DNA from: Dehalococcoidia bacterium
GTDB lineage: Bacteria > Chloroflexota > Dehalococcoidia > Lucifugimonadales > VXLM01
Direction: 5' to 3'
NCBI GenBank assembly: GCA_963667105.2
Contig: OY763089.1
Location: 1,306,362 to 1,370,361, forward strand
Length of the DNA: 64,000 nucleotides
Both the position numbers and the translations under genes were made by a program. The notes under the pieces are model-generated. The model saw nothing but the letters and a program-made list of their open reading frames with translations, searched no databases and was not told where the DNA came from. Each line of letters opens with the position of its first letter. Within the stretch, counting starts at the first letter, position 1. Shown in pieces: positions 12,859 through 33,891 of the stretch.

Positions 12859-12875
12859 CCCCCAAAATCAATAGA

Positions 12876-12975
12876 CCCGGGGGGAGCTTGGGCAGGCCAG
12901 GCTGAGAGGTCCCGACGCGAGGGACGACCCCACGACCTGATCTGGGTAATGCCAGCGAAGGGATGCGGTACCGTC
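12876..12975 (+). promoter_or_regulatory. TPP (THI-box) riboswitch
   Basis: The sequence GGGGGAGC..GGCUGAGAGG..ACCCCACGACCUGAUCUGGGUAAUGCCAGCGAAGGGA matches the conserved THI-element core (CUGAGA, ACCUGAUCUGGNUAAUGCCAGCG.AGGGA). Confidence 0.85.
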
Positions 12976-12988
12976 CATCTTTCGTAAA

Positions 12989-20351: not shown

Positions 20352-20370
20352 TGCGGTCTCCTCATGCAAC

Positions 20371-22963
20371 TTATGGTTCACCGTCGTTAGGTGGATCTTC
20401 GTAGGTCTGCGATTCACGATTCCAAAAAGCATATTCCCAAGCGTCCGCATCACCAGACGGCTCAACGGCCGTTGCTCGAATCCAAAGAGTTATGGGCGAT
20501 TCCCCAGGTCTCGGCGGAGGTGCTTTCACCTGATACATGAGCTCCTCATTGATTATGCCCGCTTGGATGATCTCTACATCAGTGCCTATGGAACCTTGTG
20601 ATCGATAGCAGACCCGAGACCCTTTTGCGAAGACCTGATCATAACCTCTAGGATGTTGGATGCCTGTCTCTACCATGTAGGGATTTTTGGGGGAAAAGTT
20701 TAACACTGCATCCTTAACGTGTTCGAACTCGTCCACACCGCCGTCCGCTTTTGCAGCAACTAATAGGCGCTCCAGAATATGATTGAACTCAAGATACAGC
20801 TTTTCGGTGAGACGCAAACTACCATAGGTCTCGTCGAAAACTGCGATACACCCACCTCGCCATACTTTGCCATCACCATCTCGGATCACAATATTGGTTG
20901 CAGCGGAACCCACGTCCTGTGGCAACACACTGTATTCGTGTGTAAATACCTCACGCAATCTGTCGGAAACTTGGCTTTTCACGCTTCCTTTTTTGAACCA
21001 GTCTTCTTCTATACAGAGTACAACTCCGCTAGTTCTGAAGTTCCGCAAACGAGCCTTCATATTGGGATTACGTTGCTGGAGTTCTTGATATGAATGGAAT
21101 TCCCCGGTTCTTCCGTCAAAGTATCCACCCACCCGCTCAGTGATGAGCATATGACATTCAGCAAGAAAACCATTGTCGCCTCTCTCCAAATGATTTTCAA
21201 TGAGTTCCGTTGCTGTAATGCCAGTGTTGATCCATGTTGTTATCTGAGGACGCGTTGAACGTCCTGGCTTGCTGGGTCTTACCTGAATGAAGGGACTGAA
21301 AGTGGATGCACGCCAAGCTGCAACCTCATACGTCTTCATCATATGGAAGTAGGCAGCCCCCGGATAACACTCTCGTAGTGCTTGGCATTGAGTTGCGTCA
21401 CCTAGTTTGTCCGCATTCTCATTGAGCTTGATCTCCCAGTTAACCTCCCCCACGTTACGAAGCGGATAGTTCCGTTGGGGTGTATCGCCTCCAAGCTCTG
21501 CAATGGGATCAAACTCAGGGGATCGATTTCCTCCGGGTCGGGCCGCGGCGTAGGTATCAGCGAAACCGCTTGGCCAGCGTACGTGTGTTGGGAGGCTTAG
21601 TGAGGCCGCAAGCGCGTCGCGTTCATCCGCTAGGCATCTGCCATGGGCAAACTGCATAAACCGATTGTTAAGGTAAAGGTATGAAGGCTCGACGGACATA
21701 TCATGGTATTCCCGAAAAGATATGCCATACCTTTGAAATAAGTTTGGGGGGCCAATAACTACAAAAGCCCCCAGGTCCATTGCGTCCAACCCGCCCCAGA
21801 CGCTGTCGGTATGCCTTGCGTGTTGGTGGCAAACCCACACTGAATCCGACGCGTAAATTAGGGAAGTCGATTCCCAGTTCTAGCGCGGACGTTGATACTA
21901 TACCCCGGCGGGTTCCAGTCCGAAGTTGCTCCTCTATAAGTCGTCGAGACCGAGGAGTGAATCCTCCGCGATATGAAGCTATTGCTGGGTTGTCAAGAAG
22001 CTCGTCCAGATCCTGCTGAGTGGCCATGGCCAGAGTCTCAACGCCTTTCCGTGAATCCAAGAACGTTATGAATGCACCATCACGCCCTTCTGTGATCACG
22101 CGATGGTGCAAATCTTTAGCAATCTTGAGTTCCTCTCCCTCCAGACACGCCACATGCGCCACGACTCGATTATAACGTGGCGCGCCATCACCTTCGTCGT
22201 CAATGACCGTGAATTTCGCACCTGTGAGTTGCGCAATGTGCTCTCCGGGATTTGAAATCGTAGCAGTAGCGGCAATAAGTTGTAGCGATACGGCATCGTC
22301 TCCCAGAAGATGATTGCGTGCAACAATTAGTCGCCGAATCAAGAAAGCAAAGTTACTCCCGAAAACCCCCTCTAGTGTATGTGCCTCGTCCATCACCAGC
22401 GTTGAAAGTGAGCCAACAAAATCTCTGACTACTGGCATGGCCAACCGTGACATAAGCCAAGCCTGACACACGTCAGGTGTCATAACGACGATACGTGCTT
22501 GTTGCAGTACATCGTCCCGTTCATTTAACGGCACTGAACCGTCTATCTGTCCGACAATGCTTTCGTCGAGGCCGAGTCCACGAGCCATTTCTCGCCAGCC
22601 CCGAAGTTGGTCAGCCACAAGTGCTCTAAGTGGATAGAACACAATCACTCTGCTGGAAGGATTAAGCAATACCTTGTGTAGAGCGAGCGCACGGAATACA
22701 AGACTCTTCCCGGACGCTGTTCCGGTAGACACTACAACATTGTCACCGCTTCCAAGTGCTTCAAGTGCTTCTGATTGGTGAGACCATAGACTAGGTTGCC
22801 CGGAGCCGATTCCACGAGACCACCGATTGAGGTAGTCCCCAACCTTGGAGTCGAATAGGAAAGGGGGTATATCTTTATACCGGGCAGGCCGCCCTTGGGT
22901 CTCAAACGACTCAACGACCGGGAATTCTGAACCATCAAGAAGGTCGTAGATCGTTTCATACAT
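20371..22963 (-). CDS. DEAH-box superfamily-2 helicase, MrfA/YprA-like with DUF1998-like C-terminal region; one frame disruption
   Basis: Motifs are STGTASGKS (I), VMDEAHTLEG (II), AATAT (III) and YRQRLGRVGR (VI). The frame changes at the C5 run 21768..21772 (one extra base), joining ORFs 21701..23104 and 20371..21840. The C-terminal part is colinear with DUF1998-type helicases (YPGAAYFHMMKTYEV, CIAVFDETYGSLRL). Start at ATG 22963 (MYETIYDLL) after GAGGTG. GC is markedly lower than in flanking genes, by eye. Confidence 0.8.
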
Positions 22964-23167
22964 GCTATTGCACCTCAAGATTGAAGCAGATATTGAGGAT
23001 TCGTCATGGGGAAGATGTAGTCTATGGGCGCGAATCTGACCACAGCGTACGGACAGTCTATCAGAATACACACCTGCTTTCGCGGGAGTGATAACAAAGT
23101 ACAACGCCGTGCTCTTTAGCCACCTACCTACTCGCCTGAGTTGGTCAGGGATCCCGGACGAAACCGA

Positions 23168-29860: not shown

Positions 29861-30544
29861 TCAGTCGGACGCAGCAAGCTCCTTGAAGATACTCTCCCAC
29901 TCGCTGGGATCGCCCCGGCCATATCCGGCACGATAGACGATTGTTCCGTTGGCGTCAATGGCTACTTTGGTGGACTGCTGGGTGACTCTGAAGTTTCTGA
30001 CCATGTTCCCGGCGGCCCTGGCTACGGCGCCGGCGTGGCCGCTCTCGTTCTGGTAACTCTGGAGGTCGCTCAGGGACTCGTCGAAGGCCACGGCGTAGAG
30101 GTCTACCTTGTCCTTGAAGGACGGGTAGATTTCGGTCAGGCTCCGCAACGCGGAGCGACAGTCCGGTCACCACGTTGCGTGGAACAGGATGAAGACGGGC
30201 TTCCTCTGCGCCACGAGATCGGTCGAACTGACCTGGCGGTTCCGCGGAAGGTTGAGCACGTAATCGGGCGCGAGATCGCCGACATCAGTGCCCACCTCGG
30301 CGCTGACGGGCGGTCGCGTGGGTTCCGGCACGGACGTCGCCGTCGGTGGGAGGGAAGTCGGTTCCATGGTTGCCGTGGATTCAGGGGTATCGGTCGGGAC
30401 GGGTGAAGGATCTGCGGCCGGGACGGACTGCGCGAGAGGGGCGGTCGGATCGGCGGCGCCGTCGGACTCGCCGCCACAAGCGATGACGGCAAGAGTCAGC
30501 AGGGCCAGAAACCCGTAGAGCAATATGTGGATGAATAGCCTCAT
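29861..30544 (-). CDS. TlpA/ResA-like thioredoxin-fold lipoprotein with in-frame TGA at the CxxC position (candidate selenoprotein, UxxC)
   Basis: ORFs 30167..30544 and 29861..30148 share one frame and are separated only by TGA 30169..30167. The junction reads ILFHATW-TGA-PDCRSALRSL. The N-terminal signal has the lipobox LAVIAC. A SECIS-like hairpin follows the TGA. Confidence 0.6.
30135..30159 (-). promoter_or_regulatory. Candidate bacterial SECIS hairpin
   Basis: On the mRNA, UGA is followed by the 7-nt spacer CCGGACU, then GUC-GCUCCGC-GUU-GCGGAGC-(CU)-GAC. This is a 7-bp perfect stem (30156..30140) plus a 3-bp extension with a 2-nt bulge. The perfect stem starts 11 nt after the UGA. Confidence 0.45.
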
Positions 30545-30643
30545 TAAGTCCCTTCTCTACTGTTATCGTACCACCAAATTATGTCGAAGGGTGGCCGCAA
30601 AAGTGAAAAGCAGGTGAACGGGGCCAACGGGGATGGCGACGGC

Positions 30644-32003: not shown

Positions 32004-32753
32004 ATGTCGAGATTTGAGGAACAGGTAGCGATAGTGACGGGAGCGGGCGAAGGTCTTGGGTTTGGAATCGCGCAGCGGCTTGGGAGCGAAGGGGCGCGGA
32101 TTGCCATCGTCGATATGAACGCGGACGTTGCGGAGCAGGCCTCGCAGGCGCTGGCCGAGCAGGGCGTGGACTCGGAGGTGGTGCTGGGCGACGTGGGAGA
32201 CGACGAGACGGCGCAGCAGGCGGTCAGGCAAGCGATAGACCGGTGGGGGCGCATCGACATCCTGGTGAACAACGCGGGGATCGCGGGGCACTCGGCGAGC
32301 GTTTGGGAGCTGCCGATCGAGGAGATGGACAGGGTGTACCGGACGAACCTGCGCGGGGTGTATGCGTTCTGCCACTACGTGATTCCGCACATGATCGAGC
32401 GGGACTACGGGCGGATCATCAATATCGCGTCCATCGCGGGCAAGGAGGGCAACCCGAAGGCGGTGCCCTACTCGGCGACGAAGGCGGGCGTTATCGGGCT
32501 GACGAAGTCCGTCGGCAAGGAGCTGGCGACGACGGGCATTCGCGTGAACTGCATCACGCCCGCGGTCGTGCGGACGCGCATCCTCGAACAGCTCACGCAG
32601 GAGCACATCGACTACATGATTTCGAAGATACCGATGGGGCGAACGGGAGAGGTGTCGGAGGTGGCGGCGCTGGTCGCGTGGCTGGCGTCGGAGGAGTGCT
32701 CGTTCAGCACGGGCGCGGTGTTCGACATAAGCGGCGGAAGGGCGACGTACTGA
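32004..32753 (+). CDS. Short-chain dehydrogenase/reductase (FabG-like)
   Basis: TGAGEGLG, NNAGI and YSATKAGVIGLTK fit the family. Start at ATG 32004. Confidence 0.85.
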   Translation: MSRFEEQVAIVTGAGEGLGFGIAQRLGSEGARIAIVDMNADVAEQASQALAEQGVDSEVVLGDVGDDETAQQAVRQAIDRWGRIDILVNNAGIAGHSASVWELPIEEMDRVYRTNLRGVYAFCHYVIPHMIERDYGRIINIASIAGKEGNPKAVPYSATKAGVIGLTKSVGKELATTGIRVNCITPAVVRTRILEQLTQEHIDYMISKIPMGRTGEVSEVAALVAWLASEECSFSTGAVFDISGGRATY

Positions 32754-32783
32754 GAAAGTGTAAGATGTAATGAAGGGGGAGCC

Positions 32784-33236
32784 ATGTCTCTGAGACTCAA
32801 TCCGGACATTACCATCAGAAAACGGGACGGCAGGCCAATCGCAATCGTTGAGGTCAAGAACAAACGAGTATTGACCGAACACGACGCATCGTATTTGCGT
32901 CATACATTCCTTGCGCACGGTCTTATGGAGGATGTCCCATACTTCCTCGTTTTGTCGCAAGATGTCGGGTACCTTTGGCATCAGAAAGAATTGACGGGGC
33001 CGGAGGTCGAAACCTACACGCACTTTTCAATGGATGGAGTTCTCAAGCGATTCATGTCGGAAGCCGACCTTGAGGCACGCCTCCACGGGGCCGAGCTTGA
33101 ACTCGTGGTCTGGCAGTGGCTCACGGAAATAGCGGGCAACGGACTGAATGCAGACCAAGAACCTGAAAGCCAGCTCCGTTCATCCGGTTTCCTCGATGCC
33201 CTGCAGGAGACGTCGGTTAGGATGGCGGCTGCGTGA
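32784..33236 (+). CDS. Small PD-(D/E)xK-fold protein (HsdR_N-like nuclease domain) with acidic helical C-terminus
   Basis: 150 aa. PDITIRKRDGRPIAIVEVKNK gives D-x13-E-V-K, followed by YFLVLSQDVGYLW. This pattern matches stand-alone restriction-endonuclease-like domains. GC is lower than in flanking genes. The stop overlaps the next gene's start (GTGA). Confidence 0.5.
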   Translation: MSLRLNPDITIRKRDGRPIAIVEVKNKRVLTEHDASYLRHTFLAHGLMEDVPYFLVLSQDVGYLWHQKELTGPEVETYTHFSMDGVLKRFMSEADLEARLHGAELELVVWQWLTEIAGNGLNADQEPESQLRSSGFLDALQETSVRMAAA

Positions 33237-33844
33237 CAATTTACGTGGAGTCGAATTTCATACTTGAAATCGCTCTCGGCCAGGAGGAGTCACACTATGC
33301 TATGGAGTTGTTGTCTAAAGCCGAGAACGGCGATATAACACTTGCCTTTCCCTCGTTCGCGCTCAGCGAACCGTTCGCAACAGTTACCCAAAGAGATCGT
33401 CGAAGGAAAGCCGTCATCAGGTCGATGACCGGTCTGTTCGAGGACTTTGAGCGGTCTGATCCCCACCGCCATATCGCTGAGTCGATGAATCCTGTGATAC
33501 ACGAACTGCGCAACGTCTATCAGAATGAGGTCTCTCGCCTGGAGTCCACAGTGAAACGCCTGCTTCACGTCGGTCGGTCTATTGAATTGGATAGCACAAG
33601 CTATGAGGCTGCGTTGGAGAACGAGAGCAGGTACGGCCTCTCTCCTCAAGATTCAATCATCTACGCATCAATCGTGCGAGACCTTTCTGTATCGGTTCGT
33701 GCAGACCGGAGTTGCTTTATGAGTCGAAATTGGAAGGACTTCGGCGATCCTGACATCAGGGCAGAGTTGGCATCTTATGATTGCCAGTACGAGGAAAGTT
33801 ACGAGACAGGTGTCTCGCTCGTACGAAAAGGGATTGTTCGGTAA
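33233..33844 (+). CDS. PIN-like domain protein with helical insertion
   Basis: 203 aa. The N-terminal IYVESNFILE, central SPQDSIIYASIV and C-terminal FMSRNWKDF correspond to PIN acidic motifs 1, 3 and 4. About 90 aa are inserted between them. The GTG start at 33233 overlaps the upstream stop by 4 nt. Confidence 0.5.
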   Translation: MTIYVESNFILEIALGQEESHYAMELLSKAENGDITLAFPSFALSEPFATVTQRDRRRKAVIRSMTGLFEDFERSDPHRHIAESMNPVIHELRNVYQNEVSRLESTVKRLLHVGRSIELDSTSYEAALENESRYGLSPQDSIIYASIVRDLSVSVRADRSCFMSRNWKDFGDPDIRAELASYDCQYEESYETGVSLVRKGIVR

Positions 33845-33891
33845 GGGCGAGTCATAAGGTTAGAAGGAAGACTCAATTGAATTCCCCCACC

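What the first reader, a model, noticed from the sequence alone, without database searches (positions are those of the whole stretch)
29861..30544. In-frame TGA at the first Cys of a thioredoxin-fold CxxC motif, with a downstream SECIS-like hairpin: candidate selenoprotein
Seen:
- ORFs 30167..30544 and 29861..30148 share one frame and are separated only by TGA 30169..30167.
- The read-through product is a TlpA/ResA-like lipoprotein. Its active site reads FHATW-[TGA]-PDC, so the stop replaces the first Cys of WCxxC.
- Ten nt downstream of the TGA begins a perfect stem-loop GCUCCGC-GUU-GCGGAGC (30156..30140), extendable by GUC/GAC.
- Every other broken gene in this window is an indel; this one is a clean in-frame stop.

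Established: UxxC thioredoxin-fold selenoproteins exist in marine bacteria, and bacterial SECIS elements lie just 3' of the UGA.
Basis: partly seen in the sequence, partly recalled or inferred. Interest (0 to 1): 0.65.

Follow-up and report, generated by a model that had tools for sequence, protein, structure and literature searches.

The report
Selenocysteine ResA-like lipoprotein gene with SECIS
The apparent stop codon inside this gene almost certainly encodes selenocysteine at the active site of a membrane-anchored thioredoxin-like redox protein of a sponge-associated Dehalococcoidia bacterium; the call is correct, but it adds one more member to a kind of selenoprotein that is already described.

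Summary
A minus-strand gene (30544..29861) has one in-frame TGA (30169..30167) at the first Cys of W-C-P-D-C. Ten nt downstream lies a perfect 7-bp, GUU-loop hairpin (30156..30140).

The TGA is neither an error nor a pseudogene lesion:
- Four independent sponge sequencing runs show no other letter there.
- All 30 gene copies found carry TGA at this codon. They come from the window, two metagenome contigs and 14 Dehalococcoidia species genomes, and include a diverged tandem paralogue.
- The frame after the TGA is under the same purifying selection as the frame before it (pN/pS 0.19-0.40).
- Codons +1 to +8, which form the spacer and hairpin, are nearly frozen at synonymous sites (p = 2.4e-4).
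- A 46%-identical Cys-form relative has TGT there, and its hairpin is broken.

The hairpin meets all four constraints of the published bacterial SECIS model. The read-through domain folds as one ResA/TlpA-like thioredoxin domain (pLDDT 94; TM 0.84 to ResA), with Sec at the start of helix 1.

Verdict: a genuine UxxC selenoprotein, a new member of the known 'Prx-like thiol:disulfide oxidoreductase' kind. Public gene calls split it in two.

The parts
29861..30544 (-). Complete selenoprotein gene: 227 codons plus the TGA terminator, read through at codon 126
   Evidence: Pfam AhpC-TSA/Redoxin/Thioredoxin_8 span the TGA. Public gene calls in relatives split it into 125-aa and 95-aa products.
30476..30544 (-). 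Signal peptide with lipobox (MRLFIHILLYGFLALLTLAVIA-C, Cys23)
   Evidence: Read from the translation. Conserved in orthologues and in the paralogue. Lipoprotein status is inferred from the motif, not tested.
30299..30475 (-). Pro/Thr/Ser/Glu-rich linker (residues 24-82)
   Evidence: Translation. Its length varies among relatives, with up to about 200 extra residues in the 'a' copies of L005-L008. Low pLDDT in the full-length model.
29864..30298 (-). ResA/TlpA-like thioredoxin-fold domain (residues 83-227)
   Evidence: AlphaFold2 model from a 41-sequence alignment: pLDDT 93.9, pTM 0.90. Best PDB matches are ResA 4nmu (TM 0.84), other ResA entries, and DsbE/CcmG. Profile search of PDB sequences: E = 9e-11 to ResA.
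30167..30169 (-). Sec codon UGA (residue 126), first position of the U-P-D-C redox motif
   Evidence: Aligned with Cys in all Cys-form homologues. TGA in 30 of 30 copies. No alternative letter in 4 DNA runs or in 2 metatranscriptome runs of relatives.
30158..30160 (-). Resolving Cys129 codon (TGT) of UxxC
   Evidence: Invariant column in alignment A5.
30140..30156 (-). SECIS core hairpin GCUCCGC-GUU-GCGGAGC. The apical loop starts 17 nt after the UGA.
   Evidence: -11.6 kcal/mol. Meets the bSECIS model constraints quoted in PMC13188914. The core CUCCGC-GUU-GCGG[A/G]G is invariant in all 30 copies, and the A/G change keeps U-A or U-G. The hairpin is broken in the Cys-form relative.
30157..30166 (-). 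10-nt spacer CCGGACUGUC between the UGA and the hairpin (codons Pro-Asp-Cys)
   Evidence: Almost no synonymous change across the 30 copies.
30550..30554 (-). Shine-Dalgarno-like AAGGG, 5 nt before the ATG
   Evidence: Read from the sequence; inference only.

Best explanation
This is one gene for an exported, lipid-anchored thiol-disulfide oxidoreductase of the ResA/TlpA type. Its nucleophilic active-site residue is selenocysteine.

Proposed mechanism:
- During translation, the 17-nt hairpin that starts 10 nt after UGA126 is bound by SelB-GTP-Sec-tRNA(Sec). That complex decodes the UGA as Sec instead of terminating (inferred from the standard bacterial mechanism).
- The 227-residue product is exported through its signal peptide and lipidated at Cys23.
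- A Pro/Thr-rich linker holds it off the membrane of this monoderm Dehalococcoidia cell.
- Sec126 and Cys129, at the N-terminus of helix 1, form a selenylsulfide/selenol-thiol redox couple that reduces or exchanges disulfides on extracytoplasmic substrates.

Shown here:
- One open frame with a single TGA at the Cys position.
- TGA fixed in every orthologue and paralogue.
- Purifying selection on both sides of the TGA.
- A conserved hairpin that fits the bSECIS model.
- A single thioredoxin domain that spans the TGA.

Inferred: Sec insertion by SelB, export and lipidation, and the redox partner or substrate, which is unknown.
For: 1; the frame, the motif FHATW-U-PDC, and Pfam domains that span the TGA.

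2; four independent sponge DNA runs cover 30167..30169 without any other letter, while nearby strain differences are reported.

3; 14 Dehalococcoidia species genomes plus metagenome contigs give 30 gene copies, including a tandem paralogue only about 50-60% identical in protein. All have TGA at W-U-[P/S]-x-C.

4; pN/pS is 0.19-0.40 downstream of the TGA, the same as upstream.

5; at third codon positions, the mean count of minority letters per 30 sequences is 0.75 in codons +1..+8 and 7.4 in the flanks (Mann-Whitney p = 2.4e-4).

6; the loop is 3 nt (G-U-U), the stem 7 bp, the spacing 17 nt and the energy -11.6 kcal/mol. All lie inside the published bSECIS limits. Every variant hairpin is at or below -9.3 kcal/mol.

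7; the Cys-form relative P0035 (46% identity, WCPVC, TGT) has a broken hairpin in the homologous 17 nt (-2.5 kcal/mol).

8; the domain model has pLDDT 93.9. Residue 44 (Sec) lies between strand 35-40 and helix 45-61. The best structural match is ResA, TM 0.84.

9. TGA ends 23 of 57 long ORFs in the window, including this gene, so the genome has not reassigned TGA.

10; relative L003 carries, on the same 122-kb contig, a UGSC-family selenoprotein gene (153 bits, cut-off 125) with TGA at the U.

11. Literature: PMC13326102 lists two Dehalococcoidia MAGs with 49 and 46 selenoprotein genes. PMC5649159 reports SelA/SelB enriched in sponge symbiont bins.
Against: - None lies in the window or in the 1.4 Mb of loci held (selD only).
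- The hairpin shows conservation, not covariation. No fully compensatory pair change was seen, and three copies carry a single mismatch.
- A hairpin this stable follows 1.5% of TGA triplets by chance.
- The 3-nt loop sits at the lower limit of the model.
- There is no direct evidence of selenium in the protein.
- No ccdA/resBC or other known partner genes lie nearby.
Confidence: 0.92

Rival explanations
1. UGA126 is read through without selenocysteine. A near-cognate tRNA inserts Cys, Trp or Gly, or Cys-tRNA(Sec) delivers Cys, so the protein is a conventional or inactive CxxC-type redoxin. The conserved hairpin would only slow the ribosome or stimulate read-through.
For: The Sec machinery was not shown for this genome. 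The hairpin is short, with a triloop at the lower limit of the bSECIS model.
Against: - The TGA sits exactly at the catalytic Cys column, and it is fixed in 30 copies although a single-base change would give TGC or TGT.
- The lineage carries other recognised selenoprotein genes (PMC13326102).
- TGA is an ordinary terminator elsewhere in the window.
Confidence: 0.04
2. The gene is a pseudogene inactivated by a nonsense mutation, or the TGA is an assembly or sequencing error.
For: Gene callers report two fragments.
Against: - The same TGA appears in 30 copies from at least 15 genomes and in 4 independent runs.
- Purifying selection continues downstream.
- Relatives' transcripts cover the site.
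Confidence: 0.01
3. These are two separate genes: a 125-aa lipoprotein that ends at the TGA, and a 95-aa protein that starts at TTG 30148. The hairpin would act as an intercistronic regulatory or attenuator structure.
For: There is a TTG start 18 nt after the TGA. Public annotation lists both ORFs.
Against: - Neither half is a domain. Pfam and PDB profiles and the AlphaFold model (pLDDT 94) need both halves for one thioredoxin fold.
- The 6 codons between the TGA and the TTG are conserved as coding sequence, including the resolving Cys.
- The Cys-form relative is one uninterrupted ORF.
Confidence: 0.02

Closest known systems
Prx-like thiol:disulfide oxidoreductase selenoproteins (PF00578, UxxC/UxxU), listed as 'predicted with high confidence' in the 2026 review PMC13188914
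   Same: The PF00578 match is above the gathering score (42.6 against 26 bits). Both share the UxxC motif with Sec in the first position, Cys-form homologues, and a SECIS directly downstream of the UGA.
   Different: - This clade is a lipoprotein with a Pro/Thr-rich linker.
- It is confined, in my sample, to sponge and marine Dehalococcoidia, and is often tandemly duplicated.
- It carries Ser in place of the cis-Pro.
- I could not check whether these exact sequences are already in BSepDB.
ResA / TlpA / DsbE (CcmG) extracytoplasmic thiol-disulfide oxidoreductases (e.g. Bacillus ResA, PDB 4nmu, 1su9; E. coli CcmG, 2b1k)
   Same: Same fold (TM 0.84 to 4nmu), membrane tethering, the W-C-P-x-C active-site context, and a size of about 145 residues.
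   Different: - Sec replaces the first Cys.
- Scores are far below the NCBIfam cut-offs: ResA 44.7 against 170, DsbE 33.8 against 123.
- The cis-Pro is replaced by Ser.
- No cytochrome c maturation genes lie nearby.
NF041057 Rcas_1661 family thioredoxin-like (seleno)lipoprotein ('DsbG-like', UxxC), a Chloroflexota selenolipoprotein family
   Same: A thioredoxin-like UxxC selenoprotein with a lipoprotein signal, found in Chloroflexota.
   Different: Only 16.6 bits against a cut-off of 190, and the match covers only the signal/linker region. It is not a member.
E. coli fdhF-type bacterial SECIS and the bSECIS consensus model
   Same: A stem-loop inside the coding sequence directly after the UGA, G-U at the start of the apical loop, and a loop 17 nt after the UGA (model range 16-37).
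   Different: It is much smaller: a 7-bp stem with a 3-nt loop, no bulged U, and no conserved lower stem. Its sequence is almost invariant across the clade.

Membership tests
Bacterial selenoprotein gene (Sec-UGA plus bSECIS) | In-frame UGA aligned with Cys in homologues (Sec/Cys pair) | tested here: met
   P0005, 24 Cys-form homologues, and the 46%-identical P0035 with TGT.
Bacterial selenoprotein gene (Sec-UGA plus bSECIS) | TGA-containing homologues in other organisms, with coding conservation on both sides | tested here: met
   30 of 30 copies carry TGA. pN/pS is 0.19-0.40 both upstream and downstream.
Bacterial selenoprotein gene (Sec-UGA plus bSECIS) | bSECIS model: 3-9 nt loop, 4-16 bp stem, G in the first two loop positions, 16-37 nt from the UGA to the loop, MFE at or below -7.5 kcal/mol | tested here: met
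   Loop GUU, 7 bp, 17 nt, -11.6 kcal/mol. Model as quoted in PMC13188914. I did not run bSECISearch itself.
Bacterial selenoprotein gene (Sec-UGA plus bSECIS) | selA, selB, selC (tRNA-Sec) and selD in the same genome | not testable with these tools
The window's proteins are not in the contig look-up collection. None of these genes is in the window, and no selD is in the loci held.
Bacterial selenoprotein gene (Sec-UGA plus bSECIS) | Selenium present in the polypeptide | not testable with these tools
   Needs 75Se labelling or mass spectrometry.
Prx-like thiol:disulfide oxidoreductase selenoproteins (PF00578, UxxC) | PF00578 domain above the gathering score, with the U-x-x-C motif | tested here: met
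   42.6 bits against 26, covering residues 88-204; motif U126-P-D-C129.
ResA/TlpA/DsbE (CcmG) family | Thioredoxin fold with the redox motif at the N-terminus of helix 1, on a membrane-tethered extracytoplasmic domain | tested here: met
   Model pLDDT 93.9, with Sec between strand 35-40 and helix 45-61. TM 0.84 to ResA 4nmu. The lipobox is read from the sequence.
ResA/TlpA/DsbE (CcmG) family | Score above the curated NCBIfam cut-offs (NF002854 ResA, TIGR00385 DsbE) | tested here: not met
   44.7 against 170 and 33.8 against 123 bits.
ResA/TlpA/DsbE (CcmG) family | Conserved cis-proline loop ([IL]-P-T) facing the active site | tested here: not met
   Q-S-T aligns with L-P-T of ResA and with I/L-P-T of all 24 Cys-form homologues.
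ResA/TlpA/DsbE (CcmG) family | Genomic association with cytochrome c maturation or CcdA/DsbD electron-supply genes | tested here: not met
   No such Pfam families occur within 10 kb either side in the syntenic loci L001-L003. The rest of the genome was not searched.
NF041057 Rcas_1661 thioredoxin-like (seleno)lipoprotein | Score above the cut-off of 190 bits | tested here: not met
   16.6 bits, on residues 13-80 only.

The most novel reading that the evidence does not exclude
This may be a distinct subfamily of surface-tethered ResA-like redoxins in sponge-associated and marine Dehalococcoidia.

Features that set it apart:
- It uses Sec in every copy sampled.
- It has replaced the universal cis-Pro of the fold by Ser.
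- It keeps an unusually small, sequence-invariant SECIS (7 bp, GUU triloop, 17 nt after the UGA).
- It has been duplicated in tandem with the recoding signal intact.

The loss of the cis-Pro and the absence of cytochrome-maturation neighbours could mean a chemistry other than classical disulfide reduction. One possibility is peroxide or hypohalite detoxification at the cell surface inside the sponge.
Probability: 0.2. Interest if true: 0.5.

Novelty: new member of a known kind. Interest (0 to 1): 0.27.

Why it matters
In practice, this is an annotation error repeated across public data. In every record I could see, the gene is split into a 125-aa and a 95-aa 'hypothetical protein'. Redox capacity and selenium dependence of these abundant sponge symbionts are therefore undercounted.

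Biologically, it adds an extracytoplasmic selenoenzyme to a lineage already reported as selenoprotein-rich. It also offers a very compact natural SECIS that could be useful for reporter work.

It does not change what is known about how Sec is inserted or which kinds of proteins use it.

Tried and rejected
The planned search of the own genome for selA/selB/selD (Pfam/NCBIfam) and tRNA-Sec (RF01852) could not be made.
- The window holds only tRNA-Val and a TPP riboswitch. A scan for other TGA-split ORF pairs in the window gave no second credible selenoprotein.
- The window's aminotransferase is not in the contig look-up collection, so I could not extend the window's own contig.
- I looked for the UGSC selenoprotein in the sister chromosome (contig length 3,145,608) through the protein search. 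None of the best 120 hits came from it or from the other fingerprinted chromosomes.
- ARAGORN's 94-nt 'tRNA-Glu' beside the UGSC gene in L003 had no Rfam match, so I dropped it.
- The first AlphaFold run, full length with 5 sequences, gave pLDDT 49 and I did not use it.
- I ran no further search on SelD. With an E. coli query, the lineage's own SelD would not rank among the rows shown.
- Covariation analysis of the hairpin was not informative, because the stem hardly varies.

Full report
OBSERVATION

On the minus strand, an ATG at 30544 opens a frame that runs to a TGA terminator at 29863..29861. It contains one in-frame TGA at 30169..30167.

Read through, the product has 227 residues:
- a signal peptide that ends in a lipobox (LAVIA-C23);
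- a Pro/Thr/Ser-rich linker;
- a thioredoxin-fold domain whose active site reads FHATW-U-PDC.

Pfam AhpC-TSA (42.6 bits, gathering score 26), Thioredoxin_8 and Redoxin match residues 88-204, so they cross the TGA at residue 126.

Ten nucleotides after the TGA lies the perfect hairpin GCUCCGC-GUU-GCGGAGC (30156..30140), at -11.6 kcal/mol. The proposed GUC/GAC extension needs a 2-nt bulge and is not conserved in relatives.

IS THE TGA REAL?

Logan contigs of four independent sponge-derived runs cover the gene. They report many strain differences nearby, including 30142 T>C inside the hairpin, but no alternative letter at 30167..30169.

Metatranscriptome contigs of more distant relatives also cover the site with TGA unchanged.

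TGA is an ordinary terminator in this genome. It ends 23 of 57 long ORFs in the window and ends this gene itself. A genome-wide reassignment is therefore excluded.

COMPARATIVE EVIDENCE

The protein collection holds the gene only as fragments cut at the same point. Their contigs (L001-L003) are syntenic with the window.

A scan of one genome per species found the gene in 14 Dehalococcoidia MAGs, most of them from sponges. One is OY762443.1, a 3.15-Mb chromosome about 95% identical to the window over 20 kb.

Most of these genomes carry two tandem paralogues. Counting the window, this gives 30 copies, and every one has TGA in the motif W-U-[P/S]-x-C.

Between the window's gene and the diverged paralogue, synonymous divergence is about 0.55. 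pN/pS is 0.38-0.44 on both sides of the TGA, and 0.19-0.26 against closer copies. The region after the TGA is therefore translated in this frame.

A pseudogene, a sequencing error or two independent genes cannot explain this pattern.

THE HAIRPIN

Across the 30 copies, TGA plus the next eight codons are almost frozen. At third codon positions, the mean count of minority letters per 30 sequences is 0.75 there and 7.4 in the flanking codons (Mann-Whitney p = 2.4e-4).

The only common change, A/G at 30142, converts a U-A pair to U-G, although it also changes the amino acid (Ser/Gly). Three copies carry a single mismatch or wobble at the outer pairs. All variants stay at or below -9.3 kcal/mol.

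The element meets all four constraints of the published bSECIS model quoted in PMC13188914:

| Constraint | Model | Observed |
|---|---|---|
| Apical loop length | 3-9 nt | 3 nt |
| Stem length | 4-16 bp | 7 bp |
| G in the first two loop positions | required | G-U |
| UGA to loop | 16-37 nt | 17 nt |
| MFE | at or below -7.5 kcal/mol | -11.6 kcal/mol |

By itself such a hairpin is not rare. It follows 1.5% of the TGA triplets in the window. There is no fully compensatory covariation, so the case rests on conservation.

A useful control is a Cys-form relative, P0035:
- It is 188 aa, 46% identical, also a lipoprotein, with the motif WCPVC.
- It has TGT at the position.
- Its homologous 17 nt, GCUCUGAGUUGCGGCGC, no longer form the hairpin (-2.5 kcal/mol).

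The hairpin is thus kept where the TGA is and not where Cys is.

WHAT THE PROTEIN IS

With a 41-sequence alignment (17 Sec-form and 24 Cys-form sequences), the Sec column is the invariant first Cys of ATW-C-PDC.

AlphaFold2 gives a confident single domain (pLDDT 93.9, pTM 0.90). Residue 44 (Sec) lies between strand 35-40 and helix 45-61, the classical thioredoxin-fold position.

The best solved neighbours are Bacillus ResA (4nmu, TM 0.84; also 1su9, 1st9), DsbE/CcmG and TlpA-like proteins. The surface lipoprotein thioredoxin Etrx2 also appears (sequence-profile matches).

The protein nevertheless falls far below the curated NCBIfam cut-offs for ResA and DsbE. It is not a member of the Chloroflexota selenolipoprotein family NF041057 (16.6 against 190 bits).

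The whole subfamily, Sec and Cys forms alike, has Ser where ResA, CcmG and all 24 outgroup sequences have the cis-Pro.

No cytochrome c maturation or CcdA genes lie within 10 kb. The neighbours are a divergent class-V aminotransferase and a 2-hydroxyacid dehydrogenase that starts 16 nt after the stop.

MECHANISM

Most likely (about 0.92), the hairpin recruits SelB with Sec-tRNA(Sec), which decodes UGA126 as Sec. The product is exported and lipid-anchored, and it works through a Sec126/Cys129 selenylsulfide couple on extracytoplasmic substrates.

The steps shown here are the recoding signature and the fold. SelB dependence, lipidation and the substrate are inferred.

WHAT COULD NOT BE TESTED

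The decisive refutation test is the presence of selA, selB, selC and selD in this genome. The window's genome is also not in the contig look-up collection.

The indirect support is at lineage level only:
- Relative L003 carries, on the same contig, a UGSC-family selenoprotein gene above the NCBIfam cut-off with TGA at the U. More than 230 gene calls in the collection stop at that same point.
- BSepDB lists two Dehalococcoidia MAGs among the ten most selenoprotein-rich bacteria (PMC13326102).
- SelA and SelB are reported as enriched in sponge symbiont bins (PMC5649159).

Earlier notes of this scan describe the same family, and Sec machinery genes, in other Dehalococcoidia genomes. I treat those as leads, not as evidence.

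COMPARISON AND NOVELTY

UxxC thioredoxin-fold selenoproteins are established predicted families. They include 'Prx-like thiol:disulfide oxidoreductase' (PF00578) and 'thiol:disulfide interchange protein' (table in PMC13188914). This gene meets the PF00578/UxxC definition, so it is a new member of a known kind.

The less ordinary points are:
- Sec in every copy of the clade that I sampled;
- tandem duplication with the SECIS intact;
- a very compact, sequence-invariant SECIS;
- the missing cis-Pro.

These justify a modest 'novel case' but not a high score.

Noticed in passing
window 29927-29935 (residues Q-S-T, about 190-192); alignment A5: The whole subfamily (30 Sec copies and the Cys-form P0035) has Ser where ResA, CcmG/DsbE and 24 outgroup TlpA-like proteins have the conserved cis-Pro ([IL]-P-T). 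This suggests altered substrate handling.
   Followed up: partly
L085 6001-6567 (also L084, L086): Cys-form relative (188 aa, WCPVC, 46% identity) on a 5.45-Mb contig, flanked by several transposase genes. Its sequence homologous to the SECIS is similar but no longer pairs. It could be a Sec-to-Cys revertant or the pre-SECIS state.
   Followed up: partly
L003 19317-19853: UGSC-family selenoprotein gene (NF041046, 153 bits) with TGA at U97, called as two ORFs of 96 and 74 aa. 234 gene calls in the protein collection end at the same point, one of them named as from a 'SAR202 cluster bacterium'.
   Followed up: partly
L003 10001-11081: In this relative, the first tandem copy has its signal peptide and its thioredoxin domain in different frames. 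The frameshift lies inside the long Pro/Thr-rich linker. The called 286-aa ORF runs out of frame across the active site. This is either a real lesion or an assembly error in low-complexity DNA at 14x coverage.
   Followed up: no
window 30138-30179: Several metatranscriptome contigs (runs X17, X18) match only these about 40 nt, the TGA plus the hairpin, and diverge on both sides. Other transcribed genes therefore seem to share the same active-site/SECIS module.
   Followed up: no
window about 32753-33889 and about 20362-23149: The window holds extra DNA (about 1.1 kb and about 2.6 kb) relative to the collinear sister chromosome OY762443.1. In L002 the first site holds a PIN-domain toxin-antitoxin-like pair.
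   Followed up: no
window 12870-12980 (+): TPP riboswitch (RF00059, 63.2 bits).
   Followed up: no
L012 11017 and L017 10820, 10148: Some paralogues read W-U-S-D-C, W-U-S-S-C or W-U-P-S-C. The spacer codons can therefore change while the hairpin core stays fixed.
   Followed up: partly
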